The notes under the pieces are model-generated. The model was not told where the DNA came from. It worked only from the letters and a program-made list of their open reading frames with translations, and made no database searches. Below, one piece after another: positions 3,558 to 64,000 of a DNA stretch of 64,000 bases. Each line of letters starts with the position of its first letter. Positions within the stretch are counted from its first letter, which is position 1. The translations under genes and the position numbers were made by a program. The DNA is from Mustelus asterias (lineage: Eukaryota), in contig NC_135806.1 in NCBI RefSeq assembly GCF_964213995.1, positions 104,718,001 to 104,782,000 on the forward strand, read 5' to 3'.

Positions 3558-3574
3558 TAGAGCCATTATAGCAC

Positions 3575-10759: not shown

Positions 10760-10819
10760 AAATAGACAATTCCACAATTTCCCAAGTTATCCTCTATTTG
10801 CCAGATCTTTGCCCACTTA

Positions 10820-11170: not shown

Positions 11171-11500
11171 ACTCTCATAGAAACTTAGAAAATTCTAAAA
11201 GTGTCAGACAGGGTAGATTCAGAAAAAAAACGTTCCCAATGGTGGGGGAGTCCAAAATTAGCGGTCATAGTTTGAGGATAAGAACTGAGGTGAGGAGAAA
11301 TTTCTTCAGCCAGAGGGTGGTGAAAGTGTGGAATTCACTACCATAGAATGTAGTTGAGGCCAAAATGTTGTCTGATTTCAAGAAGAAATTAGATATAGCT
11401 CAATAGGGGCTAAAGGGATCAAGGAATATGGGGGTAGGGGGATCAGGATATTGAATTTGATGATCAGCCATGATCAAAATGAATGGCGGAGAAGGTTCGA

Positions 11501-11635
11501 ACTATTGGATAGGCACATGCAGCACACCAGGATGATAGGGAGTGGGATAGCTTGATCTTGGTTTCAGATAAAGCTCGGAACAACCTCGTGGGCCGAAGGG
11601 CCTGTTCTGTGCTGTACTGTTCTATGTTCTATGTT
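11501..11635 (+). mobile_element. CR1 extreme 3' end
   Basis: gtgggccgaagggcctgttctgtgctgtac followed by (gttctat)n tail. Confidence 0.75.
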
Positions 11636-11639
11636 TTAT

Positions 11640-13848: not shown

Positions 13849-15371
13849 AGTTTTCAAATAAATATAGCCTAGCGAATGGGATAATGTTGGTCTAATTGTA
13901 TTGGATAAAATTGTAATGATGGTGCACGTTGTAATTTGCCTCGGTTCTTTCTGGATGCAGTATTCTGTGCCCTTTGACTACTTGGCAGGTGAACAGTGCA
14001 TCATTGACTAAAGAGGAGAGCCATATAGTTTGCTGAGAAAGTGCTGATGCCTTTGATGAGTTAAAGATTTACAAACAATAACAAACCATTTGAAAGCCTT
14101 TGGGGAGGATCCTTCATTTTACTATCAAGTTTCTCTTCTCACAAACAAGCCACAATTTACAAGCAGAGAAGATGGTGTCATACAATCGAAACATGTAGGT
14201 CCACAGTCTCTCATTGACATCTGGCTTTGACTAAGGAGTTCAGTGTCAAAGCATTTCTTGGTGCTGTACCTGGCTCTCAAGCACTAATTACCAGTACTGA
14301 GTGCAGAAGTTAGGGGATCCTGGGGATTCATGGCCAGTTTTCACATGGTCTTTACACAAAGGGGGTCCTGTTCTGCATTATGCTGTTAGCCTTAATTAGG
14401 AAGTGAGTTTGTTGTAAGCCAACCACATTAAGAGCTACATGATTACAGCACTGCATTAGGACAAGTTTATTTTAATGACATTTGTGTACATGCACTAAAC
14501 CCACGAGGGATATATCCTTTTGTTAACTGATCTTAGGAATTGCCTCAAGCAATTTCAGCTGTTTTCAGAAAGCTTAAATGAGAGCTTTAGTCAAGCTTTT
14601 TAGAATGTTTCAGCCTAATGTTTTGTGATTCACATATATACATTCTGTAACAAATACATAACAATTATCCCCATGAATTTTCACTGCTCATAGAACTCAA
14701 ACCTTGAAATCTTTTTAGTTATATCTTCATTCCTTGTTTGTCATAGTTCCTCCTTCAGTCGGCAGAGCATGATGGTCAGGCCCATAGATTTGTTCGTCAC
14801 TGTTGTCAATACTGTTTATTATAGCTTTCTCTAATAAAATAGTCCTATAAAACATCTTGCCTACTCGTTATAACACTTTTTGTATGAATGCCACAGATAA
14901 GTTCAATCAATGTGAAAATAAACTGGCGCACAGACATACAAAAAAAGCAGGTCCACTAAAGTATAAGAGAAAGCTGCTCTGTGTCAGTAAGCCACGTTGG
15001 ATAAAAGAGATTAGCATTGACTCGAGATTATTGTGAAGTGCATTATTTTGCACTAGAGTATAATTTGTATGTTTTATATGTTATAGGAACTATAGTGTTA
15101 ACTGCTGCAATAACTGACGATAATATGATTCCCCATGCGGTGTTGTGTCAAAGTCATCATTGTTGGAGCAAAATGGCTTCCCATCGTGTCAATAACATTA
15201 GAAGCTGTTTCAGACACTTTTGTTTCACGCGTCTTTTGTTGACATTGCTTTTAAAAATTGTTTCATAAAGTAAAGCAGGGGTGAGGTGGGCTGGAATTTT
15301 TAAAGTACTTTCTGCTGGCTCTAAGTATGGCTTTGAGGGTAACGGGTCGCTCCAGACTATTGTGATCTGAT

Positions 15372-18128
15372 TACTTCAATGCCAGGAGTATTCGCAATAA
15401 AGTGGGTGAACTTGCAGCGTGGATCAGTACCTGGGACTTCGATGTTGTGGCTATTTCAGAGACATGGATAGAGCAGGGGCAGGAATGGATGCTGCAGGTC
15501 CCGGGGTTCAAATGTTTTAGTCGAAGTAGGGAAGGAGGTAGAAGAGGGGGAGGGGTAGCATTATTGGTCAGAGATTGTATCACAGTGTCAGAGAGGAGGT
15601 TTGATGAGGACTTATCTGTTGAGGTAGTATGGGCGGAGATTAGAAATAGGAGAGGAGAGGTCACCCTGTTGGGAGTCTTTTATAGACCTCCTAAAAGTTC
15701 TAGAGAGGTTGAGGAAAGGATTGCGGAGTCAATCCTGCTTAGGAGTGAAAGTAATAGGGCAATTGTTATGGGGGATTTTAACTTGACTAATATTGACTGG
15801 AATTGTTATAGCTCTAGCTCGTTAGAGGGGTCAGTTTTTGTTCAAAGCGTGCAGGAAGGTTTTTTGACTCAGTATGTAGACAGGCCAACTAGAGGTGAGG
15901 CTATATTGGATCTGGTGCTGGGAAATGAGCCAGACCAGGTGCTAGACTTGGAAGTTGGTGTGCATTTTGGTGATAGTGACCACAATTCGGTTACGTTCAC
16001 CTTAGTGATGGAAAGGGATAGGCATGAACCTCGGGCCAGTGGTTTTAGCTGGGGGAAGGGTAATTATGAGGCTATTAGGAGAGAATTAGGAAACATAGGT
16101 TGGACTAGGAGATTACAGGGACTGGGAACGTCCGACATGTGGAGTTTTTTCAAGGAGCAGCTACTGCGAGTCTGTGATAGGTATGTCCCTGTCAGGCAAG
16201 GAGGAATTGGTAGGGCTAGGGAACCGTGGTGCACCAAAAAAGTTTCTTTGTTGGTTAAAAAGAAAAAGGAGGCTTATGTTCGGATGAGACGTGAGCACTC
16301 GGGTAGTGCACTAGAAAGCTTTAGATTGGCTAAGAGGGAGTTGAAGAGCGAGCTTAGAAGGGCTAAAAGGGGACATGAGAAGACTTTGGCGGATAGGGTT
16401 AAAGAGAATCCTAAGGCGTTCTATAGGTATGTCAAGAACAGAAGGTTGGTTAGGGCAAGTTTAGGGCCAGTTATAGATGGCAGAGGGAAGTTATGTGTGG
16501 AACCGGAGGAGATTGGTGAAGCATTGAACCAATATTTCTCTTCGGTGTTCACGCAAGGGGACATGAATATAGCTGAGGAGGACACTGGGTTGCAGGGGAG
16601 TAGAATAGACAGTATTACAGTTGATAAGGAGGATGTGCAGGATATTCTGGAGGGTCTGAAAATAGATAAATCCCCTGGTCCGGATGGGATTTATCCAAGG
16701 ATTCTCTGGGAGGCAAGAGAAGTGATTGCAGAGCCTCTGGCTCTGATCTTCAGGTCGTCGTTGGCCTCTGGTATAGTACCAGAAGATTGGAGGTTAGCGA
16801 ATGTTGTCCCATTGTTTAAGAAGGGGAACAGAGACTTCCCCGGGAATTATAGACCGGTGAGTCTCACTTCTGTTGTCGGCAAGATGTTGGAAAAAATTAT
16901 AAGGGATAGGATTTATAGTTATTTGGAGAGTAATGAATTGATAGGTGATAGTCAGCATGGTTTTGTGGCAGGTAGGTCGTGCCTTACTAACCTTATTGAG
17001 TTTTTTGAGAAAGTGACCAAGGAGGTGGATGGGGGCAAGGCAGTGGACGTGGTATATATGGATTTTAGTAAGGCGTTTGATAAGGTTCACCATGGTAGGC
17101 TTCTGCAGAAAATGCAGATGTATGGGATTGGGGGTGATCTAGGAAATTGGATCAGGAATTGGCTAGCGGATAGGAAACAGAGGGTGGTGGTTGATAGTAA
17201 ATATTCATCATGGAGTGCGGTTACAAGTGGTGTACCTCAGGGATCTGTTTTGGGGCCACTGCTGTTTGTAATATTTATTAATGATCTGGATGAGGGTATA
17301 GTTGGGTGGATTAGCAAATTTGCTGATGACACCAAAGTCGGTGGTGTGGTAGACAGTGAGGAAGGGTGTCGTAGTTTGCAGGAAGACTTAGACAGGTTGC
17401 AAAGTTGGGCCGAGAGGTGGCGGATGGAGTTTAATGCGGAGAAGTGTGAGGTAATTCACTTTGGTAGGAATAACAGATGTGTTGAGTATAGGGCTAACGG
17501 GAGGACTTTGAATAGTGTGGAGGAGCAGAGGGATCTAGGTGTATGTGTGCATAGATCCCTGAAAGTTGGGAATCAAGTAGATAAGGTTGTTAAGAAGGCA
17601 TATGGTGTCTTGGCGTTTATTGGTAGGGGGATTGAATTTAGGAGTCGTAGCGTTATGTTGCAACTGTACACAACTCTGGTGCGGCCGCACTTGGAGTACT
17701 GTGTGCAGTTCTGGTCCCCACATTACAGGAAGGATGTGGAGGCTTTGGAGAGGGTGCAGAGGAGGTTTACCAGGATGTTGCCTGGTATGGAGGGGAGATC
17801 CTATGAGGAGAGGCTGAGGGATTTGGGATTGTTTTCGCTGGAAAGGCGGCGGCTAAGAGGGGATCTTATTGAAACATATAAGATGATTAGAGGTTTAGAT
17901 AGGGTGGATAGTGATAGCCTTTTTCCTCTGATGGAGAAATCCAGCACGAGGGGGCATGGCTTTAAATTGAGGGGGGGTAGTTATAGAACCGATGTCAGGG
18001 GTAGGTTCTTTACCCAGAGGGTGGTGAGGGATTGGAATGCCCTGCCAGCATCAGTTGTAAATGCGCCTAGTTTGGGGGCGTTTAAGAGATCCGTAGATAG
18101 GTTCATGGACGAAAAGAAATTGGTTTAG
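15372..18128 (+). CDS. CR1 ORF2, APE endonuclease + reverse transcriptase, no internal stops
   Basis: YFNARSI, ISETW, YRPP, MGDFN, LDLVL, SDHN (APE) and full RT motifs including FADD; ~918 open codons. Confidence 0.95.
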   Translation, partial: YFNARSIRNKVGELAAWISTWDFDVVAISETWIEQGQEWMLQVPGFKCFSRSREGGRRGGGVALLVRDCITVSERRFDEDLSVEVVWAEIRNRRGEVTLLGVFYRPPKSSREVEERIAESILLRSESNRAIVMGDFNLTNIDWNCYSSSSLEGSVFVQSVQEGFLTQYVDRPTRGEAILDLVLGNEPDQVLDLEVGVHFGDSDHNSVTFTLVMERDRHEPRASGFSWGKGNYEAIRRELGNIGWTRRLQGLGTSDMWSFFKEQLLRVCDRYVPVRQGGIGRAREPWCTKKVSLLVKKKKEAYVRMRREHSGSALESFRLAKRELKSELRRAKRGHEKTLADRVKENPKAFYRYVKNRRLVRASLGPVIDGRGKLCVEPEEIGEALNQYFSSVFTQGDMNIAEEDTGLQGSRIDSITVDKEDVQDILEGLKIDKSPGPDGIYPRILWEAREVIAEPLALIFRSSLASGIVPEDWRLANVVPLFKKGNRDFPGNYRPVSLTSVVGKMLEKIIRDRIYSYLESNELIGDSQHGFVAGRSCLTNLIEFFEKVTKEVDGGKAVDVVYMDFSKAFDKVHHGRLLQKMQMYGIGGDLGNWIRNWLADRKQRVVVDSKYSSWSAVTSGVPQGSVLGPLLFVIFINDLDEGIVGWISKFADDTKVGGVVDSEEGCRSLQEDLDRLQSWAERWRMEFNAEKCEVIHFGRNNRCVEYRANGRTLNSVEEQRDLGVCVHRSLKVGNQVDKVVKKAYGVLAFIGRGIEFRSRSVMLQLYTTLVRPHLEYCVQFWSPHYRKDVEALERVQRRFTRMLPGMEGRSYEERLRDLGLFSLERRRLRGDLIETYKMIRGLDRVDSDSLFPLMEKSSTRGHGFKLRGGSYRTDVRGRFFTQRVVRDWNALPASVVNAPSLGAFKRSVDRFMDEKKLV

Positions 18129-18226
18129 GTTGGAGGGTCACAGTTTTTTTTTTAACTGGTCGGTGCAACATCGTGGGCCGAAGGGCCTGTTCTGCGCTGT
18201 AATGTTCTATGTTCTATGTTCTATGT
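15372..18226 (+). mobile_element. Young CR1 LINE truncated at the start of ORF2
   Basis: Open ORF2, short 3'UTR, gggccgaagggcct hairpin, (gttctat)n tail. Confidence 0.95.
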
Positions 18227-18231
18227 AACAA

Positions 18232-18436
18232 TGGTGGGGGCCTGGAATGCGCTGCCAGGCAAGGTGGTGGAGGCGGACACACTGGGAACATTTAAGACTT
18301 ATCTAGATAGCCACATGAATGGAGTGGGAATGGAGGGATACAAAAGAATGGTCTAGTTGGGACCAGGGAGCAGCGCGGGCTTGGAGGGCCGAAGGGCCGA
18401 AGGGCCTGTGCTGTATTGTTCTTTGTTCTTTGTTCT
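18232..18436 (+). mobile_element. CR1 3' end, same family as 6961 and 49559, short 3'UTR form
   Basis: High identity to 50251-50452; (gttcttt)n tail. Confidence 0.9.
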
Positions 18437-18597: not shown

Positions 18598-21500
18598 GGT
18601 CCAGCTTTTTGCCCCAGGCCAGGTGCGCAGGATTAAAATTCCAGGCTCCACTAATTGGACCTTTAAAAATGGCTGCCTGAACATTTTGCTTTAGGGGGCT
18701 GGCCTAGAACAGGAGTTGGGGCAGGCGACCCCTGAAGAAGTTCAGAGATCATCAGGCACACAGGTGGTCTGGACGGGAATCTTGCCTTGGGGCTCTGGCA
18801 CTGTGTCCTAAACTAAACACTATCAATGAAAACATAAAAAATCCCTCCAACCCTCATCCCTCACTCCCCCCACAATCCACATGGCCCAACCATGTTGACC
18901 CATGCCACCTCATGCCCTATATCCAACCCCCATGGCCAATCATACTCTCCAGGCTAACCTATGCCCCTGTGCCAACCCTCATGGCCCTTTATAGCCTCTA
19001 TGCCAATTCATGTCCCTATATCCACCTCCCATAACACTTAATAGGCCTATGAAAGCCTATGCCCCTGTACCCACCCCATGGCCCCTCATACACACCCCCT
19101 CCCTCCATGCCAATATATGCCTCTGTACTCACCCCACAGCCTTTTATAACCCTTATGTCAACTTAGTGCTAACCCGTCTCCCTCATCCACTATCCTTTAC
19201 CCTTAGTTTACAATGCCAATTCACATTTCCACCATGAGCAGACATCAAGATATATGCAGAGATTAGATAAAATCAAGTTCTAAAGTTTTAAGTGTCTACT
19301 GCAGACGTCACACAATTTTAAAAAAGCACTCATAGAAAACGCATTTACTACATTTCCGTTCCTTCCCCTAAATAAAATCTTATAACAATCATTTCATTGA
19401 AGTGCACAATATCTTATGACAACAAACATTGGAATTCATTGTCCCACCTCAAAGGGTTTGCAACCACTTGAAGCTGTCAAACTGTGAAGTGGATAGCATC
19501 CTAATTCAATCCTGCAGCAGTAATCTATCAATGGGAGCCCTCGGGTTTCAGTCAACAGACAGTGTGAAAATGCAAGAAATCTTTTTGAACACTCCAGACA
19601 TGATATCAAAAATCTAAAGTGCTGGACTTTTAAATGCCTAAACAGTTTGAGAGCTCCTCTTGACAGGTGCTTGAGAGATGATTCCTCCATCCAAGGAGGA
19701 GGAAACATGCTAAGAGGAGGACAAGGCATCCATGGCTGACGAAGGAAGTCAAGGACAGCATAAAAGCAAAAGAAAAAGCACACAAAGTGACAAGGATTAG
19801 TGGGAAACCAGAGGATTGGGAAGCCTTTAAAAGCAAGCAGAGGACAACTAAAAAAGCAATAATGGGGAGAAGATGAAAGATGAGTGTAAGTTAGCTAGTA
19901 ATAGAAAAGAAGATGGGAAGAGTTTTTTCAATATATAAAAGGTAAAAGAGAGGCAAAAACAGCCATTGGACAACTGAAAGATGAGGCTGGAGAAGTAATA
20001 ATAGGAAACAAAGCAATGGCAGAGGAACTGAATAGTTACTTTGCATCAGTCTTTACGGTGGAAGACACCAGTGGGATGCCAGAGCTCCAGGAGTGTCGGG
20101 GGCACAGGTGAGTGTAGTGGCCATCACTAACGAGAAGGTTCTGGGGAAACTGAAAGGTGTGAAGGTGGATAAATCACCTGGACCGGATGGAGTACACCCC
20201 AGGGTTCTAAAAGAGATGGCTGAGGAAATTGTGGAGGCATTGGTGGTGATCTTTCAGGAATCAATGGAGGCAGGGATGGTACCAGAAGAATGGAAAGTAG
20301 CGAATGTAACACTGCTATTTAAGAAGGGAGGGAGGCAGCAGATGGGAAATTATAGGCCAGTTAGCAAGATTGGCAAGATTTCAGAGTCTATTATTAAAGA
20401 TGAGATCGCAGAGTACTTGGAAGTGCATGATAAAATAGGACTGGGTCAGCACGGCTTTGTCAAGGGGAGGTCATGCCTGACAAAGCTGTTAGAGTTCTTT
20501 GAGGAGGTAACAAGGAAGTTAGATAAAGGAGAGCCTGTGGACATGATTTATTTAGATTTCCAGAAGGCCTTTGACAAGGTGCCGCATAGAATAAGTTACG
20601 AGCCCATGGTGTTAAGGGTGAGATCCTGGCATGGATAGAGGATTGGTTGACTTGCAAAAGGCAGAGAGTGGGGATAAAGGGGTCTTTCTCAGGATGGCAG
20701 CCGGTGACTAGTGTGTGCCTCAGGGGTCAGTGCTGGGACCACAACTTTTCACAATATACATTAAGGATTTGGAGGAAGGAACTGAAGGCACTGTTGCTAA
20801 GTTTGCAGATGATACAAAGATATGTAAAGGGTCAGGTAGTATTGAGGAAGCGGGGGGCTGCAGAAGGACTTGGACAGGTTAGGAGAGTGGGCAAAGAAGT
20901 GGCAGATGGAATTCAATTTGGAAAAGTGTCAGGTTATGCACTTTGGAAGAAGGAATGGAGGCATAGACTATTTTCTAAATGGGAAAATGCTTAGGAAATC
21001 AGAAACACAAAGGGATTTGGGAGTCATTATTCAAGATTCTCTTAAGGTTAACGTGCAAGTTCAGTCGGCAGTTAGGAAAGCAAATGCAATGTTAGCATTC
21101 ATGTCAAGAGGGCTAGAATACAAGAGCAGGGATGTACTTCTGAGGCTGTATAAGGCTCTGGTGAGACCCCATTTGGAGCATTGTGAGCAGTTTTGGACCC
21201 CAAATCTAAGGAAGGATGTGCTGGCCTGGGAAAGGATCCAGAGGACGTTCACAAGAATGATCCCTGGAGTGAAGAGCTTGTCATATGAGGAATGGTTGAG
21301 GACTCTGGGTCTGTACTCGGAGTTTAGAAGGATGAGGGGGGATCTTATTGAAACTTACAGGATACTGCGAGGCCTGGATAGAGTGGACGTGGAGAGGATG
21401 TTTCCACTGGTAGGAAAAACTAGAACCAGAGGGCCCAACCTCAAGCTAAAGGGACGACCCTTTAAAACAGAGATGAGGAGGAATTTCTTCAGCCAGAGAG

Positions 21501-22331
21501 TGGTGAATCTGTGGAACTCTTTGCCTCAGAAGGCTGTGGAGGCCAGGTCATTGAGTGTCTTTAAGACAGAGACAGATAGGTTCTTGATTAACAAGGGGAT
21601 CAGGGGTTATGGGGAAAAGGCTGGAGAATGGGGATGAGAAAAAAAATCAGCCATGATTGAATGGTGGAGCAGACTCGATGGGCCGAGTGGCCTAATTCTG
21701 CTCCTATGTCTTATAGTCTTATGATTTTGAAAGGTCTGTTGACAATTCCAATGACCTTGACAGTAATGGGTTTATGTACTTTTTACATAAAACATTCCTC
21801 CAGCCCTCACCTCTCACTTCCACACACACTCTCCATGCCCTATCCATATCGGTCTATATCACCTCATGCTCTGTACCCAAATCCCCCATGGGCCATCATA
21901 TTCTCCATACTAACCTATCCCCCTGTACCAACTCCCGTGGCCCTTTATTCCTAATTCCATGTGGCATTTGACTTAACCGAGTGGGCACCTGACCTCCACT
22001 AAGGGCAAGATCCAAAGAGTATTTAACCTCCCAGGACCAGATCCAAAGGGATATTTTCCATTCCAAAGGGGTACCCTGGCTATCCAAAGCCACCAGTCCA
22101 TTCCTGGTCTAACCTGCACACGTTGGGTTTCACACTCCTGGCCTACTAAAATCCCATGTCAGTGGATGTAGTTGATGATTTAAATTGCCATCTCAGAAAT
22201 GCGTCAGCCCCCTTTTGATGCCCTCGCAAAAATGGGAAGTGCCATGTCAGGGGCACAACATCCAATTTTCAGGCATTTCCCTTATTTTTGCCAGAATAGT
22301 GAGCCTCTCCATTGTGGCAAATATCTGAGCC
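18598..22331. mobile_element. Non-autonomous Harbinger-type element with internal ccatgcc-rich low-complexity DNA, interrupted by CR1
   Basis: Imperfect TIRs ggtccagctttttgcc / ggcaaatatctgagcc and TTA on both flanks. Confidence 0.6.
19670..21723 (+). pseudogene. CR1 LINE, 5'-truncated, frameshifted RT
   Basis: RT split over ORFs 20093-20638 and 20870-21637; 3' hairpin gggccgagtggcct and tcttat-type tail. Confidence 0.9.
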
Positions 22332-27739: not shown

Positions 27740-29300
27740 ATAAAGAATGACTGAGGAAGGGAGAGGGGAGGCTCAACATTTTCAGACATTGCACTTGATG
27801 TCTTTGTGGAGGAGGTGGAAAGGAGGATAAAATTCCATGTAACCTCAGTGAGGGTGGGAGGGAGCGGGACAAGAGATCCTCCAGAAACACAATGAGAAGA
27901 TGGTGGAAACAGATAACCGTGGAGGTCAATGCCAGGAATCGAGCCCTGAAGACCTGGATTCTGTCCCGCAAGAAATTTAATGACCAGTGGTCAAGATCAG
28001 TGAATGCATCATCAAATGCCATATCCTACCAATTACACTACTAGCCCCGCACAATGTTCAATTAAACCACATCAGCTCTCAATAATCTCTATATACCACC
28101 TCACCCTCACATACTTAGCACTGCAGCAAGCCTCAAACACATAATCACAGCTCGCACACACCACTAGCTATTCACCTATGAATGCCATATCACCAAAATT
28201 TATTGCAAAACACTCACTGACATACTTCCGTCTCTCTTGCAGGAGAAAGTGACACACAGAGGCAGCAGAAACTAAATGGGCAAGGAGAGCAGGACTGCGT
28301 GTCTTAACTCTCATCAAGGAGAGGATGCTGGGCAATATGGAAATGTAATTGCTGAGGCTATGGTCTTGGGGACCAGCAGGGCTGAATCCATTGAAGATGA
28401 CAGTTTCCTTCCTCCCTATCTTCCTTTTCACATCCACCTACGCCCTCATCCCTAACTCACTTAGTTAAAGTTTATTTATTTGTCACAAGTAGGCTGACAT
28501 TAACACTGCCATGAAGTTACTATGAAAATCCCCTGGTTGCCACACTACGGCACCTGTTCAGGTACACTGAGGGAGAATTTAGCATGGTCAATGCACCTAA
28601 CCCGCATGTCTTTCGGACTGTGGGAGGAAACCGGAGCAACAGGAGGAAACCCACGCAGACATGTCCACACAGACAGTGACCCAAACCAGGAATCAAAGCA
28701 GGGTCCCTGGCGCTGGGAGGCAGCATTACCATCCACTGTGCCACCATGCCCCACTTCTGATCAACAAGTTGCAGATTGTGTAAGTATACACCTCTTACTT
28801 TCCTCTCTCCCCCTCACCACAATACACTGCTTATCCCTTTGTCTTTTCAGACATCCAGGAAGTGCAACATCTTCAGACAGTGATGGAAGAGCAGGAGGAC
28901 ACTGAAGACGAAGAGATACAGTCACTTGATTTCACACTCGCAGTCACCAGCTTAGATACTGACACTTGTGAATTAATGGGGATAGAATAGCAGTTGGACC
29001 TGCATACGTTGAGACACTGAATACAAGTGAGCTGCCGACAGGACAGGGAGAAAGGGAGTGAGTGCAAGTGCCAGTTGCCGGAGAGTGAGGCTGCGTGCTA
29101 GTTCTAGCACTAAGGATTCAGATGAGTCCGTTCTTTGCGTTTGACTACAGATAAGGGTGTACACATTGAAATGCTTGGTGCATTGGAAAAGTTTGGTAAA
29201 AAGCCAGCATACAATTTCAAGGCACAAACTTGGCATTTTGTGAAATACTTGCAGCCTATTCTTTCCATCATGGAACTGGTGGCCTCCCTTTCTTTTCCTC
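27740..29300 (+). pseudogene. Harbinger Myb/SANT-like gene remnant with apparent exons
   Basis: FSDIALDVFVEEVERR...WWKQITVEVNARNRALKTWILSRKKFND; acceptor-like ctcttgcag|gagaaagtg (~28243) and cttttcag|acatcc (~28851). Confidence 0.7.
28467..28751 (-). mobile_element. HE1-like V-SINE, tail type B
   Basis: Same organisation as 3255-3557. Confidence 0.85.
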
Positions 29301-30900: not shown

Positions 30901-32002
30901 TTATGTTTGGTTTTAAGAGAAAGTTCTGTTAATGCAGCCATATCGATCCAAAAGCAAAAGTTTGTGCAGATACTTTGAAGTTACTGAAAAGAAATCCTAA
31001 TAGCAATGAGCACTACCAAGTTCAATTTTAACCCAATGTCTGTTTAACTGCTGGATATCTTGTGTATGTTTCCACCATCAGTACTATGCATATCAGTCCT
31101 CCCATGGGTGTGCTATTGTATTTTAAACATCATAAAGCTTCAAAGTTTGATATTCAATACCTAAAGGCCTAACCTTTTTAAAAGCAATTTAAAATTCTGT
31201 TTCTACAGATGTTCTCATGAACATTTGAATCTTGTTCTGCTATGCAAAACTACATGCATTAGCATCTACTAAGTGTTGGTAGTGAAGGAAAACATTTTTA
31301 AAATTAACATGCACAGTATATGAATAACAAATCTGTAAATGGATGATGTGGTTAATTCCCCAATGTTTCTCTTGTCGACATTTATCATCGAATATGTTAT
31401 ATGTGTTAATACTTTGCTGCTTTCTGCAAGTTTTTAATGTGGAAAACGAAAGAAATTTGAGACAATATTTTCCTGATGTCATGGTTCACTATGGATTTTA
31501 CTGGTACCAGTTTAATATGAGATTCCTGCCAGATGTATTACAAGTTTACAATCTGTGTTAATATCAAGTGTAAGCATTCATCAATACCCAACTAAAAAAC
31601 AAAACAAGAGAATTTTTGGCAGCAGGTTCAGGCGCTGAAGATCCTCCGGGTTGACGGCTTGAGCTGAAAAGCTGGTTTAGTCCAAGTCATTCAGCATCTA
31701 CAGTAAGATACCACTTTGGTAAAGGAGTTGAAGCTTGCGCTATGAATGGCTAGATCATTAAAGGGCTGATTGTCATTTAAGTGACATGTGTGTCATAGAC
31801 AGGAGAGAGAAGTGGGATAATTTCTCCCTTTTACCCATCTCACGACTGACTGCAACAAGGTGTATTTTTGAGAAGGAATGTTTTAATCCTTTGACTTTAA
31901 AGCACAGACAGGAAACAGGCTTTCTTATAAATAAATGATAAATATTTAATCTTCACAACACCTACACTGTAAATGCAACAAACATTCATTCTTCAAACAC
32001 AT

Positions 32003-32208
32003 AGTAAGAAGTATCACAACACCAGGTAAAAGTCCAAAAAGTATCACGAACTTTCGGAACGCTGCTCCTTCATCAGGCTCCTTCATCACTCACCTGATGA
32101 AGGAGCAGCACTCCAAAAGCTCGTGATACCAAATAAACCTGTTGACTTTAACCTGGTGTTGTGACACTTTTAATTGTGCCCAGCCCAGTCCAATGCTGGC
32201 ATCTCCTC
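32003..32208. mobile_element. Penelope-like element terminal repeats in inverted pair
   Basis: cacaacaccagg.../...cctggtgttgtg inverted arms carrying decayed hammerhead motifs. Confidence 0.8.
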
Positions 32209-32214
32209 AAAAAC

Positions 32215-35699: not shown

Positions 35700-36960
35700 A
35701 ATAGCTTCCAGAAAATTGATAAAAGGGAGAAAATAGAATATGAGCTACTATGAGACTAGGTGGAAATGTTAAATAAACAGAATATAAGAGCTTCTACAAG
35801 TATGTAGAAAGGAAAAAGTAGGTATCAGTCCCTTAGAAACTGAGACAGGAGAACAGGGAATAAGGAAATGGCACATAAATAAATGATTTTTGTCTGTCTT
35901 CCCAGTAGAATACCAGGTTAAAGTCCAACAGGTTTATTTGGAATCACGAGCTTTCGGAGCACTGCTCCTTCATCAGCTGAGTCCACTCACTTTAACCTGG
36001 TGTTGTGAGACTTCTCACTGTGCCCACCCCAGTCCAATGCCGGCATCTCCACATCATGGCTATCACTGACACCGCAAATCACCAGCTCACCTGATGAAGG
36101 AGCAGCGTTTTGAAAGCTCGTGATTCCAAATAAACCTGTTGGACTTTAACCTGGTGTTGTGAGACTTTTTATTGTGCCCACCCATCTCCACATCAAGGCT
36201 TCACAGTAGAAAGCACAATAGCTATACCAGAAACATTGGAGAGCCAGGGTCCAATAAAGTGAGGAACTTAGAGTGATTAATATTACTAAGAAAAAAGTGC
36301 TGGAGAAATTAATGGGTCCAGAAGCCACCAAATCCTCAGGACCTGATACCCTATATACTAGAGTTCGAAAGCACATGGCTGAAGCGATAGTAACTGCACT
36401 GCATGTGATTGTCCAACATTCCCTAGATTCTGGAGAACTCCCAGTGGAGTGGAAAGTAGGAAACTTCGGCACAGGCATATCTCTTTTCAAGAAAAGGAAA
36501 GAGAGGGAGAACAGGGGATTACAGGCAGGTTAGTCTGAAGTCAGTACTGGGAAAATTGTTGGAATCTATTTTCAAGGAACTGGTAAAAAAGACACTTAGA
36601 GAATCATAATATGATTATGTAGAGTCAGCATAGTTTTGTGAAAGTGAGATTGCATTTGACAAATCTATTAGAGCATTTTGTAGATGAAACTAAGAGTAGA
36701 TGAAGGGGAATCAATTATTGTTGTATACTTGGATTTCCAAAAGGTTGTGGGCAACATATTGAAATAGATAAAGTATTGATGAAAGAGCAAAAATAGAGAG
36801 TAGGAGTAAATGGGTAATTTTCAGGTTGGCAGGGTGTTACTAATGGGAAACTGCCGAGATCAGTCCTGGGTCTTAAACTTTTTACAATCTGTATGAATGA
36901 TTTAGATGTAAGGACCAATGTTTTGTATCCACCTTTTCTAATAATACAAAATGAGGTGGG
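35700..36960 (+). mobile_element. Heavily decayed CR1 RT fragment
   Basis: ITKKKVLEKLMG..KSSGPD..., gtcagcatagttttgtg, ttggatttccaaaagg. Confidence 0.7.
35911..36198. mobile_element. Penelope-like repeat cluster (one inverted + two direct units)
   Basis: 13-bp TSD cttc(c/a)cagtagaa at 35898-35910 and 36199-36211; hammerhead motifs on both strands. Confidence 0.8.
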
Positions 36961-39752: not shown

Positions 39753-40058
39753 GGCGGCACGGTGGCACAATGGTTAGCACTGCTGCCTCACAGGGATCCG
39801 GGTTCAATTCTCAGCTTGGGTCATTGTCTGTGTAGAGTTTGCACATTCTCCCCATGTCTGCGTGGGTTTCCTCCCACAGTCCAAAGATGTGCAGGTTAAG
39901 TGGATTGACCATGCTAAATTGACCCTAGTGACAGGGGATTAGCGTGGTAAATATGTGGGGTTACGGGAATAGGGCCTGGGTGGGATTGTGGTCGGTGCAG
40001 GCTCAATGGGCCGAATGGCCTCCTTCTGTACTGTAGGGCTTTGATGATTCTATTCTAT
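39753..40058 (+). mobile_element. HE1 V-SINE, type A
   Basis: ggcggcacggtggcacaatggttagcact head; gggccgaatggcctccttctgtactgtag tail. Confidence 0.88.
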
Positions 40059-43263: not shown

Positions 43264-43428
43264 ATAACCATAAAAATGTAACCTGTGCAACGTGCACTTT
43301 TGTAAGACACCCACCAGAAGCAAGTTAGCAACAAGGGCACACAAATTAAATAGATAACCTCAGCTTGATAGGGGAAATGAAAACTCAGGAATCTCATTGG
43401 TCTACAAAACCTTTGTTCTAATGTAACC

Positions 43429-43690
43429 AAAAGAGAAAATGCTGGAAAATCTCAGCAGGTCTGGCAGCATCTGTAAGGAAAGAAAAGAGCTGACTTTTCG
43501 GGTCCAGATGACCCTTTGTCAAAGCTTTGTTGGACTTTGACAAAGGATCATCTGGACTCGAAGGATCATCTGGACTCGAAACGTCAGCTCTTTTCTCTCC
43601 TTACAGATGCTACCAGGCCTGCTGAAATTTTCCCGCATTTTCTCTTTTAGTTTCAGATTCCAGCATCTGCAGTAATTTGCTTTTATTTTG
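43429..43690. mobile_element. Penelope-like element (second family), inverted terminal repeats
   Basis: aaagagaaaatgctggaaaatctcagcaggtctggcagcatctg and its reverse complement; hammerhead-like motifs. Confidence 0.75.
43488..43526 (-). ncRNA. Minimal hammerhead ribozyme motif with U3-A8 core
   Basis: AGCU UUGACAA A GGGUC AUCUG GACCC GAAA AG UC AGCU. Confidence 0.6.
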
Positions 43691-45433: not shown

Positions 45434-45762
45434 TCATAGAATCATAGAAACCCTGCAGTGCAGAAAGAGGCCATCTGGCCCATCGAGTCTGCACCGACCA
45501 CAATCCCACCCAGGCCCTACCCCCATATCCCTACATATTTACCTGCTAATCCCTCTAATCTACGCATCTCAGGATACTAAGGGGCAATTTTAGCATGGCC
45601 AATCAACCTAACCCGCACATCTTTGGACTGTGGGAGGAAACCGGAGCACCCGGAGGAAACCCACGCAGACACGAGGAGAGTGTGCAAACTCCACCCAAGG
45701 AATCGAACCCAGGTCCCTGGAACTGTGAAGCAGCAGTGCTAACCACTGCGCTACCGTGCCAC
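45434..45762 (-). mobile_element. HE1 V-SINE, type A
   Basis: Near-identical to 10411-10759 with a small deletion. Confidence 0.9.
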
Positions 45763-46599
45763 CAAAGTCCATTGTGACTTTTTCCACAGTATTGTTTCTG
45801 CAAAGAATGAACAGTGACAGGTTATCTTATTTCATACACAACATTGGTTCCAATTATATTTATATAAAACAGTCAGAAATAGGACATTATGCAAAGAAAC
45901 TTTGAGCTTAATTTGATAGGTTGTGTGGGTTGCTGACTGCAGTAGAATGGATAGAATTTGGGATGGTGCATTTTAGGTAATTAAATTTGCAATATGATCA
46001 GTGAAAGGATAAATAGATTTAATGCAGAACCTGTACTTTCTGAATTTCAACAGGATTTGAATGCTGCATTTTCTGTCTATATATATCCTTTTTATTAGAT
46101 TTATACTCATTCAGAATGTTCTTCTTATGCACTTCCGACCTGTTTATAATTTCATCTTAAACAGTTATTTTCTGAATTCACAACTCAAATAGCAGCATGG
46201 CATTGGGCTATACTGGACTAGAAGCAGCTGTTTTATCAATGGCTGCTTAATGACCAACATGTTATTATATCTGTGGATTAATCAGACCATTTAGAATCTG
46301 AGTTAATGGAACTGTGTGTTTGTTGGGAAATATGTGTTCCATTTACTGCACATTTCAGAAAACGAACATATCCACAACGTCATTGTTAACTGATTTAGCC
46401 TTTTGCTTTTAAGAATGTTGCCTGTGAATGTTCTTTCCTTCACAGGAGTATTCCTCATTTGCTCTTCAATTGCGCAACCCAGCTTCAAGTCCTGTTGCAA
46501 ATCCTACTGCTTAGATGAGCTCCAACTCAAGTTTATCAGGCCCAGGAATCTGATCAACACCAACTGAAATCTGAGCAGCTGAAATTGGCAAAAAAATGA

Positions 46600-47457: not shown

Positions 47458-47650
47458 ACAAAGGCAGAAAATGCTGGAAAATCTCAGCAGGTTTGGCAGC
47501 GTCTGTGGAGAGGGAATAGAGCCAATGTTTCGAGTCTGGATGACCCGTCATCACAGCTAATAGCAAAGAACATCAGAAGAGATTTATAGTACGAGTGTGG
47601 GGATGGGGGGGCTGCAATTGGACAAAGGGAATATAAATGATGATAAAGAA
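47458..47650 (-). mobile_element. Penelope-like fragment (second family)
   Basis: gaaaatgctggaaaatctcagcagg; decayed hammerhead at 47520-47558. Confidence 0.65.
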
Positions 47651-49558: not shown

Positions 49559-50452
49559 CACAAAATTGGCAGGACTTGCAGATAGTGAGGAGCATTGTCA
49601 GAAGCTACAGAAGGATATAGATAGGCTGGAAATTTGGGCAAAGAAATGGCAGATGGAGTTCAATCCTGATAAATGCGAAGTGATGCATTTTGGTAGAAAT
49701 AATGTAGGGAGGAGCTATATGATAAATGGCAGAACCATAAAGGGTGTAGATACGCAGAGGGACCTGGGTGTGCAAGTCCACAGATCCTTGAAAGTGACGT
49801 CACAGGTGGAGAAGGTGGTGAAGAAGGCATATGGCATGCTTGCCTTTATAGGACGGGGCATAGAGTATAAAAGTTGGGGTCTGATGTTGCAGATGTATAG
49901 AACGTTGGTTCGGCCGCATCTGGAATACTGCGTCCAGTTCTGGTCGCCACACTACCAGAAAGACGTGGAGGCTTTGGAGAGAGTACAGAGGAGGTTTACC
50001 AGGATGTTACCTGGTATGGAGGGGCTTAGTTATGAGGAGAGATTGGGTAAACTGGGGTTGTTCTCCCTGGAAAGACGGAGGATGAGGGGAGACTTAATAG
50101 AGGTGTATAAAATTATGAAAGGCATAGATAGGGTGAACGGTGGGAAGCTTTTCCCCAGGTCGGTGGTGACGTTCACGAGGGGTCATAGGTTCAAGGTGAA
50201 GGGAGGGAGGTTTAACACAGATATCAGACGGACATATTTTACACAGAGGGTGGTGGGGGCCTGGAGTGCGCTGCCAGGCAAGGTGGTGGAGGCGGACACA
50301 CTGGGAACGTTTAAGACTTATCTAGACAGCCATATGAACGGAGTGGGAATGGAGGGATACAAAAGAATGGTCTAGTTTGGACCAGGGAGCGGCGCGGGCT
50401 TGGAGGGCCGAAGGGCCTGTTCCTGTGCTGTATTGTTCTTTGTTCTTTGTTC
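49559..50452 (+). mobile_element. Young CR1 3' fragment, short 3'UTR form
   Basis: Near-identical to 7899-8739, open frame, (gttcttt)n tail. Confidence 0.93.
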
Positions 50453-52398: not shown

Positions 52399-53197
52399 TG
52401 ATGTGGAGATGCCGGCGTTGGACTGGGGTAAACACAGCAAGAAGTCTCACAACACCAGGTTAATGTCCAACAGGTTTGTTTGGTAGCACGAGCTTTTGGA
52501 GCACTGCCCCTTCATCAGGTGAGTGCAGGATTTGATTCACAAACAGGGCATATATAGACACAAACTCAATTACAAGATAATGGTTGGAATATGAATCTTA
52601 ACAGGTAATCAAGTCTTTACAGGTACAAACAATGTGAGTGGAGAGAGGGTTAAGCACAGGTTAAAGAGGTGTAAATTGTCTCAAGCCAGGACAGTTAGTG
52701 AGATTTTGCAAGCCCAGGCAAGTCGTGGGGGTTACAGATAGTGTGACATGAACCCAAGGTCCCGGTTGAGACCGTCCTCATGTGTGCGGAACTTGGCTAT
52801 CAGTCTCTGCTCAGCGACTCTGCGTTGTTGTGTTTTGTGAAGGCCGCCTTGGAGAACGCTTACTCGAAGATCAGAGGCTGAATGCCCTTGACTGCTGAAG
52901 TGTTCCCTTCCTGATAGGAAGGGAACACTTGCAAAATCTCACTAACCGTCCTGGCTGGAGACAATTCACACCTCTTTAACCTGGTTAACCGTCTCTCCAC
53001 TCACATTGCCTGCACCTGTAAAGACTTGATTACCTGTAAATACTCACATTCCAACCATTATCTTGTAATTGAGTTTGTGTCTATATATGCCCTGTTTGTG
53101 AACCAAATCCTGCATTCAGCTGATGAAGGGGCAGCGCTCCGAAAGCTCGTGCTACCAAATAAACCTGTTGAACTTTAACCTGATGTTTTGAGACTAC
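52399..53197 (-). mobile_element. Penelope-like element 3' part with GIY-YIG C-terminus and inverted pLTR
   Basis: EHFSSQGHSASDLRVSVLQGG...AEQRLIAKFRTHEDGLNRDLGFMSHYL*; ~270-bp inverted arms; 12-bp TSD ttaaatgacaca. Confidence 0.9.
53117..53151 (+). ncRNA. Minimal hammerhead ribozyme motif
   Basis: CAG CUGAUGA A GGGGC AGC GCUCC GAAA GC UC GUG; core intact, helix I mismatch. Confidence 0.6.
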
Positions 53198-53250
53198 TTA
53201 AATGACACAATGTAATACATAAAAATTACAACATGGAAACAATCCATGTT

Positions 53251-53789: not shown

Positions 53790-54676
53790 TATCATGTTTT
53801 CCACTTTAGTAGCAAAACCTGGAAGGCAGATTATTACCTGAATGGCTATAGATTGAGGGAGGGAATGTGCAATGAGACCTGGATGCCCTTGTACACCAAT
53901 CACTGAAGGTAAGCACACAGGTGCAGCAGGTGGTGAAGAAGGCAAATTGTTTGTTGGCCTTCATAGCGAGAGGATTTGAGTACTGGAGCAGGGATATCTT
54001 GCTGCAGTTGTACGGGCTTTGGTGAGACTACACCTGGAATACTGGGTGCAGTTTTGGGGCTCCTTATCTGAGGAAGGATGTTCTTGCTATGGAGGATGTA
54101 CAGCAAAGGTTTATCAGATTGATTCCAGGGATAGCGAGCCTGATGTATGAGGAGAGATTGAGTCGGTTAGGATTATATTCGCTGGAATTTAGAAGAATGA
54201 GGGGGAGGGAACGTTAAAGAAAACTATAAAATTCTAACAGGACCAGACAGAGTGGATTCCAGAACCAGGGGTCATAGTCTAAAAATAAAGGACTGAGATT
54301 AGGAGAAATTTCTTCACTGAGAGAGTGGTGAACCTCTGGAAGTCTCTACCACAGAAAGCAGTTAAGGCCAAATCATTGTGGACGGAATTTTATTGACCCG
54401 CCCGCCACGGGAATCGGAGCGGGAGGGGGGCAGACCATGGAAAGGTCCGTTGACCTCGGGAGGGGGGTTTACGGTTTTGGGATGAGCAAGACCGTAAAAT
54501 CCCGCCCTGCATGTTTTCAAGAAGGAGTTACATATAGCTCTTTGGGTTAAAGGGATCAAAGGATATGGGGGGAAAAGGGGAACAGGTTGGATGATCAGCC
54601 ATGATCATGATGAATGGTGGAGCAAGTTTGAAAGGCAAAATAGCTGATTACTGTTCCTTTTTTCGATGTTTCTATT
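53790..54676 (+). mobile_element. Decayed CR1 3' fragment
   Basis: cagcaggtggtgaagaaggcaaat...cacctggaatactgggtgcagttttgg...gaaatttcttcactgagagagtggtg. Confidence 0.8.
54380..54507. mobile_element. 128-bp Harbinger-type MITE
   Basis: TIRs ggacggaattttat / gtaaaatcccgccc; reverse-oriented sister at 58743. Confidence 0.75.
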
Positions 54677-54877: not shown

Positions 54878-55187
54878 GGCAGCACCGTGGCACAGTAGTT
54901 AGCACTGCTGTCTCACAGCGGCTGGGATCCGGGCTTGACTCCCAGCTTGGGTCACTGTCTGTGTGGAGTTTGCACATTCTCCCCGTGTCTGCATGGATTC
55001 TCTCCGAGTGCTCCGGTTTTCTCCCACAGTCTGAAAGACGTGCTGGTTAGGTGCATCGGCCACGTTAAATTCCCCCTCAGTGTACCCGAACAGACAGGGC
55101 CAGAGTGTGGCGACTGGTGGATTTTCATAGTAACTTCATTGCAGTGTTAATGTAAGCCGACCTGTGACACTAACAAATAAACTTTAA
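54878..55187 (+). mobile_element. HE1-like V-SINE, tail type B
   Basis: Head, V-domain, tail cattgcagtgttaatgtaagccgacctgtgacactaacaaataaac. Confidence 0.85.
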
Positions 55188-59277: not shown

Positions 59278-60554
59278 GGGCCTGATTTTACCATTTTCAT
59301 TCTAAGTGCTGAATCTGGGCACAATTCAGATCCGACTTGGAAATCTGTTCTCAGGCGCCCCCATACGCACTCAGCCTGAAAAAACAAATCGCGGATCTGA
59401 ATCGCGCTGTGGGCTTAGTGCACGCAGAACGATCGGAGCCTCTGAACTGCGCATGCGCAGTTAGAAAAACAACTTGAAAAAGCGCGCCCGTGTCAGATCG
59501 CTCCCGAGACATTGAAAGTGGAGAAAGTGGCCCGGGAGTGAAAGGCGGGAGCGATGGCCCCCACAGACATCACTGTCCCCCTTATCCACCCAACCCCCGC
59601 TACCCAGACCGATCGCGACCACCTGCCCCCCTTCCCCCCCACCGATCACCCGCAGAGTGGCAGCGGACCCCCCTGCCCCCCGTTCCTCCCCCCACCAGAG
59701 ATACATCTTACCCGCCTCCCTCCCCGCCCCCCCCCACCCCACCCGAGAACGATCTGGCCTCACTCCCCCTCCCCTGCCAGAGAATGATCTGGCCTCACTC
59801 CAGCAGCACCTCCCCACCCACCAGAGAATGATCTGGCCTCACTCCCCCCCCACCCCACAGAATGATCAGTCCTCACTCTCCCCCTCCCCAGAGAATGATC
59901 TGACCTCACTCCCCCCCCCACCCCCCACCAGAAAACGATCTGGCCTCACTCACCCTCCCCCCACAGAGGTACATCTGACCCGCCTCCTCCCCCCTCCCCA
60001 CCCCCTCTTCAGAGATCCATCTGGCCCGCCTCCCTCCCCCCCAACCAGACAACAGTCTGCCCTCCCCCGCCAACCAGACAACAATTGGCTCTCCCCTCCC
60101 CCAACCAGACAACGATCGGGCCTCCCTCCTCCCCCCCCCAACAGAGAATGATCTGACCCACCTCCCGCCACCCGCCCCTCCTCCCCCAACCCCACCGATC
60201 TGAATCAGAGAGCCGTTGGAAGGTTTGAACTCGCCTCTTCAGCAGCTGGAGTGACCAATTCAGACTTTTATTCAGCAGGGCAATTTCGGCATGATTCCGG
60301 TTCGGTGAACACGGCGGTAAAGGGGGAAATGCTGATAACGTTGGGCAGGCAGTTCATTAATTCAATTTAAATGCATGCAAATGCATTTAAATCGCCATTG
60401 GGCCCGTTTCAGGCGTGAATCAGATCGTGGCCATTCCCGGGTCTCGGTAAAGTGGCCATCTGCGCGGGCGCGGATCGCGTTAATGGCCTCACACCCGACT
60501 TTACCACGTTTTTGCGCCCGAAAACAGGTGCGACGCAATGGTAAAATCAGGCCC
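59278..60554. mobile_element. 1277-bp non-autonomous Harbinger-type element with internal repeat array
   Basis: Perfect 18-bp TIRs gggcctgattttaccatt / aatggtaaaatcaggccc and TAT TSD. Confidence 0.88.
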
Positions 60555-63250: not shown

Positions 63251-63453
63251 GATTCAAAATTGGCTGAATAATAGGAAGCAGAGAGCATTGGTTCATAGAT
63301 ATTTTTTAGGCTGGAGGAAGGTTTGTAGTGGTGTTTCCCAGAGGTTGGTATAGGGACCCTTGCTTTTCCTGATATATATTAATGATCTAGATCTCGGTGT
63401 TTCAAAATTTGAGGTATTGTAAACTGTGTGGAGGACAATGTAGAACTTCAAAG
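63251..63453 (+). mobile_element. Old CR1 RT fragment
   Basis: aattggctgaataataggaagcagagag...gtggtgtttcccag...atattaatgatctaga. Confidence 0.7.
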
Positions 63454-64000
63454 GTGTGGAGATGCCGGCGTTGGACTGGGGTAAGCACAGTAAGAAGTCT
63501 CACAACACCAGGTTAAAGTCCAACAGGTTTATTTGGTAGCAAATACCATAAGCTTTCGGAGCAATGCTCCTTCGTCAGATGGAGTGGTCTCTGTTCTCAA
63601 ACAGGGCACAGACACAGAAATCAAATTACAGAATACTGATTAGAATGCAAATCTCTACAGCCAGCCAGGTCTTAAATGCACAGACAATGTGGGTGGAGGG
63701 AGCATTCAACACAGGTTAAAGAGATGTGTATTGTCTCCAGACAGTACAGCTTGTGAAATTGTGCAAGTCCAGGAGTCAAGCTGTGGGGGTTACTGATAAT
63801 GTGACATAAATCCAACATCCCGGTTTAGACCGTCCTCATGTGTGCGAAACTTGGCTATCAGTTTCTGTTTCGCACACATGAGGACGGTCTAAACCGGGAT
63901 GTTGGATTTATGTCACATTATCAGTAACCCCCACAGCTTGACTCCTGGACTTGCACAATTTCACAAGCTGTACTGTCTGGAGACAATACACATCTCTTTA
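63454..64000 (-). mobile_element. Young Penelope-like element 3' part with fold-back (runs off window)
   Basis: KLIAKFRTHEDGLNRDVGFMSHYQ*; pLTR; perfect inverted arms. Confidence 0.9.
63546..63582 (-). ncRNA. Minimal type I hammerhead ribozyme motif, intact
   Basis: CCAU CUGACGA A GGAGC AUU GCUCC GAAA GC UU AUGG: helices I and II fully paired, palindromic AGCU at helix III. Confidence 0.75.

What the first reader, a model, noticed from the sequence alone, without database searches (positions are those of the whole stretch)
63546..63582. Family of minimal hammerhead ribozymes in Penelope repeats, with helix-I covariation
Seen: seven related motifs at 32045-32077(-), 32091-32125(+), 35945-35979(-), 36087-36123(+), 52487-52521(-), 53117-53151(+) and 63546-63582(-). 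They follow helix I-CUGANGA-A-helix II-GAAA-GC-UH-helix I'. Most have CAC/GUG in helix I, while this copy has CCAU/AUGG, so pairing is kept although the sequence differs. Helix III is reduced to a palindromic AGCU. Established: Penelope-like elements carry minimal type I hammerheads thought to cleave as dimers. Inference: this copy is catalytically competent, whereas two copies lost G12 by CpG decay (cgaaa to caaaa).
Basis: partly seen in the sequence, partly recalled or inferred. Interest (0 to 1): 0.7.

Follow-up and report, generated by a model that had tools for sequence, protein, structure and literature searches.

The report
Penelope retrotransposon minimal hammerhead ribozyme
This is one of more than 120,000 copies of a tiny hammerhead-ribozyme motif that jumping genes of the Penelope type carry through this animal genome; the motif type is already known and likely cuts RNA slowly in pairs, and this copy is likely just an inert passenger from a very recent jump.

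Summary
The motifs are real. The focal 37-mer has a complete minimal type I hammerhead core, 2,565 exact genomic copies, and lies 211 nt behind the stop codon of an 892-aa RT + GIY-YIG Penelope-like element. Four full-length copies with open ORFs carry two direct hammerheads 3,016-3,017 nt apart. At least 123,000 intact-core motifs exist genome-wide (control 3). The helix I change C-G to U-A is genuine but looks like one lineage event with a U·G intermediate, not many independent changes. Better support comes from two helix II compensations and a second Penelope family whose helix III palindrome is ACGU instead of AGCU. The focal copy is intact because it is young: a 5'-truncated head-to-head insertion whose read-through RNA is predicted to bury the motif in duplex. 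Most insertions span the cut site, so the copied RNA was uncut there. Cleavage was not tested. This is the known class of Cervera and de la Peña 2014; the added value is copy number, a natural compensatory series and intact young elements for testing what the ribozyme does.

The parts
63546..63582 (-). Focal minimal type I hammerhead: helix I 5' strand 63579-63582, core CUGACGA 63572-63578, extra A 63571, helix II 63558-63570, GAAA 63554-63557, palindrome AGCU 63551-63554, U17 63550, helix I 3' strand 63546-63549
   Evidence: 2,565 exact genomic copies, reversed control 0
63549..63550 (-). Predicted scissile bond, between U17 (63550) and A1.1 (63549); triplet CUU; in full-length elements U17 lies 98 nt before the ORF's AUG
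   Evidence: position by hammerhead numbering; cleavage itself not tested
63455..63867 (-). 5'-truncated 3' end of a young Penelope-like element (end of endonuclease, pLTR, hammerhead, tail); 100% identical over 413 nt to other loci
63790..63870 (-). Last 26 codons and stop (63790-63792) of the GIY-YIG endonuclease domain
   Evidence: tblastn 96% to residues 867-892 of P0001
63455..63487 (-). ~33-nt 'tail' present on one arm only; its end lies a few nt before the ORF start codon of full-length copies
   Evidence: tail described in PMC8557442, PMC11167929, PMC3846280
63867..64000 (+). Inverted (head-to-head) second arm; runs on beyond the window to 64229 with an identical hammerhead at 64135 (+)
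   Evidence: (L034), 43: arms 63488-64229, 98% complementary
63443..63454 (+). Left copy of an 11-12-bp target site duplication; right copy begins at 64229 beyond the window
31999..32209 (.). Older head-to-head pair with decayed hammerheads at 32045-32077 (-; 5' helix I lost, palindrome broken) and 32091-32125 (+; G12>A)
   Evidence: best match among fetched loci 89.5%
35909..36183 (.). Older rearranged insertion with hammerheads at 35945-35979 (-; G.G mismatch in helix I) and 36087-36123 (+; helix II weakened by C>T changes)
52402..53200 (.). Older head-to-head insertion with endonuclease codons 52738-52905 (-) and hammerheads at 52487-52521 (-; G12>A) and 53117-53151 (+; G.G mismatch in helix I)
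47458..47640 (-).
43422..43685 (.). Head-to-head pair of the second family with decayed or truncated hammerheads; the + arm keeps GAAA-CG-UC

Best explanation
It is the minimal type I hammerhead motif in the terminal repeat (pLTR) of a young, very abundant endonuclease-bearing Penelope-like retrotransposon, which likely self-cleaves slowly as a two-copy (double) hammerhead in the RNA of active elements, while this particular truncated copy is likely an inert passenger. Shown: motif, host element, two direct copies 3,016-3,017 nt apart around an open 892-aa ORF, conservation of core and pairing across lineages. Inferred: two copies pair through their AGCU palindromes to build helix III, each cutting after U17, 98 nt before the AUG; the fold is marginal and would need the element's protein or a host chaperone. 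Inferred: cleavage processes tandem or read-through transcripts to unit length but is not part of target-primed reverse transcription, because insertions end 60 or ~98 nt downstream of the cut site and extend upstream through it. The focal copy is intact because it inserted recently; selection acted on the replicating lineages, not on this locus.
For: Host element: full-length copies L036-L039 with 892-aa ORFs, 98.2-98.7% identical, PF00078 RT (E 5e-10) and VYLI...YIGET endonuclease motif, hammerhead 211-212 nt after the stop and 98 nt before the AUG. Abundance: 123,271 intact-core matches vs 3 in control. Pair 2.1:1.1 genome-wide: C-G 80,753, U-A 38,829, C.A 4,478, U.G 3,872. On 16 hand-picked variants 171 of 176 cells (97.2%) pair and 7 of 11 pairs change on both sides; slid controls give 30-47%. 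Helix II: A-U > G.U > G-C at 10.3 and G-C > A-U at 10.4 in 1,462 matches. Free positions vary (N7 C/U/A, H17 U/A/C, loop 2 of 3-5 nt) while G17, which cannot be cleaved (PMC3138052, passages), was seen in 0 of 243 copies and 0 of 57 anchor-detected copies. A second Penelope family (~30% aa identity) uses ACGU: 25 of 40 copies, 13 more being the CpG-decay forms ACAU/AUGU. Two adjacent bases cannot pair within one strand, so kept self-complementarity points to a dimer. With detection independent of the core, 57 of 67 copies had a recognisable motif, 13 of 26 core changes hit the CpG C11.1/G12, and no non-CpG core change recurred as a lineage. Same architecture as in PMC4209133 (parts 1-2 of 4 read); cleavage shown for a relative in PMC11167929.
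Against: No cleavage assay and no usable RNA reads. Nearest-neighbour energy does not favour the double hammerhead (-18.1 kcal/mol) over two monomers (-19.2) or a helix II duplex (-31.1). Helix I probability is 0.23 in context, with a competing 3' hairpin. No clear pile-up of 5' ends at the scissile bond (hand count of the 100 listed rows: 5 start at 1.1, 13 at H17, 3-14 at each other position; 23 rows set aside as the +2-spacing lineage, ambiguous or deleted). In the anole element the ribozyme needed protein, was dispensable for insertion in vitro, and no RNA-seq reads ended at the site (PMC11167929); Naiad elements thrive without one (PMC8557442). The 16 variants are related and were chosen by me among intact motifs, so that score is not a probability. 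AGCU is invariant within the focal family. CUU is not one of the fast natural triplets (GUC, GUA; PMC3138052). Rfam gave no hammerhead hit.
Confidence: 0.75

Rival explanations
1. The fold is kept as a binding or positioning structure for the element's protein, which closes helix III in a single copy; cleavage is monomeric and protein-assisted, or incidental, and dimers play no part.
For: The anole hammerhead cleaved only when protein was added (PMC11167929). Same-strand partners are rare in the genome: 3 same-strand neighbours within 3.5 kb against 20 head-to-head pairs among 67 copies. The dimer is not favoured by energy.
Against: The palindrome is kept through a two-sided change between families (AGCU vs ACGU). 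Dimeric and trimeric constructs of a Schistosoma motif cleaved where the monomer did not (PMC4209133). Active elements do hold two direct copies.
Confidence: 0.15
2. The motif is a vestige or hitchhiker that is no longer under selection; it looks conserved only because the lineages are closely related.
For: Many Penelope clades lack it and PMC8557442 raises the idea that it may simply parasitise the elements. The block just downstream of the motif is as conserved as the core (usable as a 34-nt anchor), so high identity here is not specific to the ribozyme. Helix I covariation is about one event.
Against: Changes between lineages fall on N7, H17 (never G), loop 2 and paired positions with compensation, and not on the 11 catalytic nucleotides, also between two families only ~30% alike in protein.
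Confidence: 0.07
3. This locus is a host-adopted ribozyme whose distinct CCAU/AUGG helix reflects selection at this site.
For: It is the only one of the seven window copies with core and both helices free of changes.
Against: The same 37-mer occurs 2,565 times and the 413-nt arm is 100% identical to other loci; intactness is explained by age. The insertion sits among LINE fragments and folds back on itself.
Confidence: 0.02

Closest known systems
Minimal hammerheads (min-HHR) of metazoan Penelope-like elements, Cervera and de la Peña 2014 (PMC4209133; parts 1-2 of 4 of the text read, figures and supplements not seen)
   Same: Type I, in pLTRs of Xena, Poseidon and Neptune elements of fishes; short helix I, one unpaired base between 9 and 10.1, G10.1-C11.1, palindromic 15.2-16.2, tandem copies ~3 kb apart, opposite-strand pairs 100-700 bp apart, families with compensatory changes.
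   Different: Counts there were ~4,000 (coelacanth) and ~9,000 (Xenopus tropicalis); here at least 123,000 intact cores, though descriptors differ. Helix II is 5-6 bp here (7-8 bp in Schistosoma). Sequences in their supplements could include this family; not seen.
PAc, Poseidon element of Anolis carolinensis, Frangieh et al. 2024 (PMC11167929; parts 1-2 of 4 read)
   Same: pLTR hammerhead near the ORF start; two 3' ends defining a 30-40-nt tail; insertions copied from uncleaved RNA.
   Different: In PAc the cut lies 26 nt inside the ORF; here 98 nt before the AUG, and the long end falls at the start codon. This protein has a C-X4-C-X2-C linker (residues 754-762), the mark of Neptune/Nematis rather than Penelope/Poseidon.
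Neptune clade of EN+ Penelope-like elements (PMC8557442, passages; PMC3846280, passages)
   Same: RT then C-terminal GIY-YIG, CX2-5CxxC linker, 5' truncation, inverted 5'-truncated copy, optional tail, ~8-12-bp target duplication.
   Different: Clade was judged by the linker motif only, no tree with reference elements; Nematis shares the linker.
Lünse, Weinberg and Breaker, small hammerhead variants of Penelope-like elements cleaving as dimers (paper not held; known only from the review PMC6765202, passages)
   Same: Short palindromic stem III, dimer cleavage.
   Different: Could not compare sequences or rates.
Non-LTR retrozymes (bioRxiv 10.64898/2026.07.22.740005; part 1, section 12 and passages read)
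   Same: Type I hammerheads related to pLTRs of Penelope-like elements in vertebrates.
   Different: Those are short non-coding tandem arrays (at most 14,255 active copies, axolotl); the copies here are dispersed or inverted ends of an autonomous element.

Membership tests
Minimal type I hammerhead of Penelope-like elements | Conserved core C3 U4 G5 A6 N7 G8 A9, G12 A13 A14 A15.1, U16.1 H17 | tested here: met
Minimal type I hammerhead of Penelope-like elements | Helix II with G10.1-C11.1 and one unpaired base between 9 and 10.1 | tested here: met
   extra A in 242 of 243 copies; G-C in 16 of 16 variants
Minimal type I hammerhead of Penelope-like elements | Short open helix I kept by pairing | tested here: met
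   about one independent two-sided change within the family, more against the second family
Minimal type I hammerhead of Penelope-like elements | Helix III reduced to a palindrome | tested here: met
   AGCU here, ACGU in the second family
Minimal type I hammerhead of Penelope-like elements | Located in both pLTRs flanking an RT + GIY-YIG ORF | tested here: met
   L036-L039
Minimal type I hammerhead of Penelope-like elements | Self-cleavage as dimer or with protein | not testable with these tools
   no assay; only assembled contigs available
Rfam hammerhead families | Match to an Rfam covariance model | tested here: not met
   no hammerhead family among 12 matches up to E 10
EN+ Penelope-like elements | Single ORF with RT and C-terminal GIY-YIG endonuclease | tested here: met
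   PF00078; DKG 297, YIDD 533, VYLI 792, YIGET 806; no Pfam GIY-YIG hit, so the endonuclease rests on motifs I recognise from recall and PMC8557442
EN+ Penelope-like elements | pLTR, inverted 5'-truncated copy, 30-40-nt tail, short target duplication | tested here: met
Neptune clade | CX2-5CxxC linker between RT and endonuclease | tested here: met
   residues 754-762 of P0001; shared with Nematis per PMC8557442
Neptune clade | RT phylogeny groups with Neptune references | not tested
   no reference sequences fetched
Non-LTR retrozymes | Non-coding head-to-tail arrays of short units, each with a hammerhead | tested here: not met
   window copies are head-to-head ends of a coding element; arrays elsewhere in the genome were not searched for

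The most novel reading that the evidence does not exclude
The hammerhead is a switch that splits the element's RNA between two jobs. Cutting 98 nt before the AUG would release an uncapped messenger for the downstream unit and at the same time strip both reverse-transcription start sites from the upstream unit, so only uncut RNA is copied into the genome. A competing hairpin over the 3' strand of helix I would hold the template uncut. The genome's hundreds of thousands of dated copies would then record selection for a catalytic but deliberately throttled ribozyme, and the intact young elements would let this be tested in a vertebrate.
Probability: 0.2. Interest if true: 0.6.

Novelty: new member of a known kind. 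Interest (0 to 1): 0.33.

Why it matters
The motif class is known, so the finding by itself is ordinary. What it adds: one of the densest ribozyme-motif loads I could find reported for a vertebrate (at least 123,000 intact cores, against 4,000-14,000 in the two papers read, with different descriptors); a natural series of compensatory changes with wobble intermediates; and young full-length elements with open ORFs. Whether Penelope hammerheads serve the element or ride on it is an open question (PMC8557442, PMC11167929); the lineage pattern here argues for selection on catalysis, and these elements are ready material for the test.

Tried and rejected
Rfam scan: no hammerhead hit; the miRNA hits are only inverted-repeat arms. 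PDB sequence search of the ORF: nothing up to E 1. NCBIfam: only weak RT hits below cut-off. RNA evidence: no RNA holder listed on record; four guessed-RNA runs from other organisms were contigs only and cannot show ends, strand or level; they hold related sequence with loose ends at the two insertion ends, not used as evidence of expression. Pile-up of genomic 5' ends at the scissile bond as a fossil of in vivo cleavage: none clear. First candidate for a full-length element (L031, two copies 3,974 nt apart) was a tandem duplication of flanking DNA. Folding z-scores of the motif (-2.16) and the downstream stem (-1.80, -0.58, +0.73 in three stretches) are weak, so the downstream stem is not claimed. 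Single-linkage clustering of upstream sequence merged lineages and was replaced by a tree (127 of 262 copies had full upstream sequence, thinned to 68). Earlier findings of this scan: nothing. Lünse et al. not held. Literature searches listed no paper describing this family or counting hammerheads in such a genome; subscription papers, Repbase/Dfam entries and supplements were not seen and may well hold it. Locus-specific exaptation rejected (2,565 exact copies).

Full report
Observation. All seven motifs are present. The focal one reads, on the minus strand, CCAU-CUGACGA-A-GGAGC-AUU-GCUCC-GAAA-GC-UU-AUGG. A general minimal-hammerhead descriptor finds 8 hits in the window against 0.13 on average in 30 dinucleotide shuffles. 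Only 3 of the 6 other copies have CAC/GUG; two have a G.G mismatch and one lost its 5' strand. G12>A in two copies is confirmed; the window has a CpG observed/expected ratio of 0.31. Rfam has no matching hammerhead model hit.

Host element. The window lies in a 3.68-Gb genome; contigs of related sequence come from fish-associated runs, and the repeats look like those of a cartilaginous fish by my recall only. The focal 37-mer has 2,565 exact copies. Upstream lie the last 26 codons of an ORF. Of 20 loci fetched around the ORF's 5' part, 4 (L036-L039) hold an uninterrupted 892-aa ORF between two same-strand hammerheads 3,016-3,017 nt apart. The protein has a Pfam RT domain, DKG and YIDD motifs, a C-X4-C-X2-C linker and VYLI...YIGET. 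That is an endonuclease-bearing Penelope-like element; the linker marks Neptune or Nematis (PMC8557442, passages). The core starts 211-212 nt after the stop; U17 is 98 nt before the next AUG.

The focal insertion. It is two 5'-truncated arms head to head, 63488-64229, 98% complementary, with a ~33-nt tail on one arm and an 11-12-bp target duplication, the arrangement described in PMC3846280 and PMC8557442 (passages). The arm is 100% identical over 413 nt to other loci, whereas the other window insertions are 89-93% to their best match among fetched loci. So the motif is intact because the insertion is young. Its mate is on the other strand, and a read-through transcript is predicted to pair all 37 nt in the long duplex. 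In 60 arbitrary 10-kb stretches there were 20 head-to-head pairs and 3 same-strand neighbours among 67 copies.

Abundance. An intact-core pattern gives 123,271 matches, control 3. This is a lower bound: the pattern family (127,932 in all) predicts 21 matches in my 600 kb, and I found 38; the stretches all come from large contigs. An anchor outside the motif finds 67 copies in 600 kb, reversed control 0, which would scale to roughly 400,000 including fragments; the window's 7 per 64 kb is ordinary for this genome.

Covariation. For pair 2.1:1.1 the genome holds C-G 80,753, U-A 38,829, C.A 4,478 and U.G 3,872; many C.A cases follow C17 and fit CpG decay (listing). These counts reflect ancestry. 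On a tree of 68 thinned copies built only from upstream sequence, all 35 U-A copies fall on one side of a 100/100 branch, together with a small lineage that has CCAU opposite GUGG; the tool counts 3 changes for the label, which I read as one two-sided event through a wobble. Independent support lies elsewhere: 10.3 goes A-U, G.U, G-C; 10.4 goes G-C to A-U in 1,462 matches; loop 2 varies in sequence and length; N7 and H17 take three states each, and G17 was seen in 0 of 243 and 0 of 57 copies. A search for other helix III letters (7,979 matches, control 188) revealed a second family, with endonuclease remnants ~30% identical upstream in several of 37 loci, whose palindrome is ACGU in 25 of 40 copies and its CpG-decay forms in 13 more. 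On 16 variants that I picked, 97.2% of cells pair and 7 of 11 pairs change on both sides, against 30-47% paired for slid structures; RNAalifold recovers helices I and II. Relatedness and my choice inflate these numbers. With core-independent detection, 47 of 57 recognisable motifs have an intact core, half of the changes hit the CpG, and no other core change recurs as a lineage; a rare broken lineage would be missed at this sample size.

Mechanism. Shown: sequence, position, conservation pattern. Inferred from PMC4209133: two copies pair through AGCU to form helix III and cut after U17; there, monomers were inactive and dimers weak. Inferred from folding: the double hammerhead (-18.1 kcal/mol) is no better than two monomers (-19.2), a helix II duplex is better (-31.1), and helix I forms with probability 0.23 in context, partly because a hairpin takes its 3' strand; help from protein fits PMC11167929, where cleavage needed the element's protein. 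Insertions end about 60 or 98-100 nt after U17, matching the two start sites of reverse transcription reported for the anole element, and 59 of 67 copies extend more than 20 nt upstream of the anchor, past the cut site. The template was therefore uncut (or religated) at this site. I looked for 5' ends piling up at the scissile bond: 5,151 matches are truncated or changed around it, and in my hand count of the 100 listed rows there is no clear peak. So cleavage, if it occurs in vivo, belongs to transcript processing or control, not to insertion.

Comparison and verdict. Every sequence-level feature of the min-HHR class is met; cleavage could not be tested; it is not a retrozyme array. The searches listed no description of this family, but repeat libraries, supplements and the paper of Lünse et al. 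were not seen. PMC6155905 (passages) gives G12 as general base, so the G12>A copies are likely dead.

Noticed in passing
window 47458-47640 (-) and 43422-43685: Three more decayed hammerheads of a second Penelope-like family with ACGU palindrome; downstream of the motif is a pyrimidine tract ending in CAG-ATG that looks like a 3' splice site.
   Followed up: partly
window 63455-63545 (-): The block downstream of the hammerhead is very conserved across lineages and can fold into a long stem (GUUGGACU with AGUCCAAC) whose inner hairpin ends at the short insertion end; possible protein-binding or priming structure. Folding z-scores are weak and it was not recovered in an older copy.
   Followed up: partly
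window 63534-63548 (-): A hairpin (UGGUA/UACCA) overlaps the 3' strand of helix I; younger lineages have 6-10 extra nt here and some form a similar hairpin in another register; possible brake on cleavage.
   Followed up: partly
L039:3061-3066, L032, L033: The long end of insertions coincides with the ORF start codon, and the reading frame is open for 20 codons upstream of the AUG.
   Followed up: no
L038:4529 and 1513; L004: Some full-length or tandem copies carry different loop 2 variants in their two pLTRs (UGU and AUU), suggesting template switching or recombination between subfamilies.
   Followed up: no
window 32045-32090: A 13-nt piece of the hammerhead's 5' half is duplicated at the inversion junction; a similar 19-nt duplication sits at 43541-43581.
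   Followed up: no
window 7194-8756, 13220-13503, 16626-18398, 20857-21566, 49559-50417, 54061-54391: Many related repeats that look like 3' ends of CR1/L2-type LINEs (label recalled, not tested).
   Followed up: no
window 3348-3576, 10412-11187, 28554-28773, 39791-40053, 45434-45783, 54878-55093: A family of ~200-300-nt SINE-like repeats (resembles HE1 of cartilaginous fishes, recalled, not tested).
   Followed up: no
window 59683-60175: Degenerate C-rich tandem array of ~35-47-nt units (12 copies).
   Followed up: no
L031 (G000:C1:12276800-12283800): A ~2-kb tandemly duplicated unit in which alternate units carry a short Penelope end with the hammerhead; same-strand hammerheads 3,974 nt apart arise here by duplication, not by an element.
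   Followed up: partly
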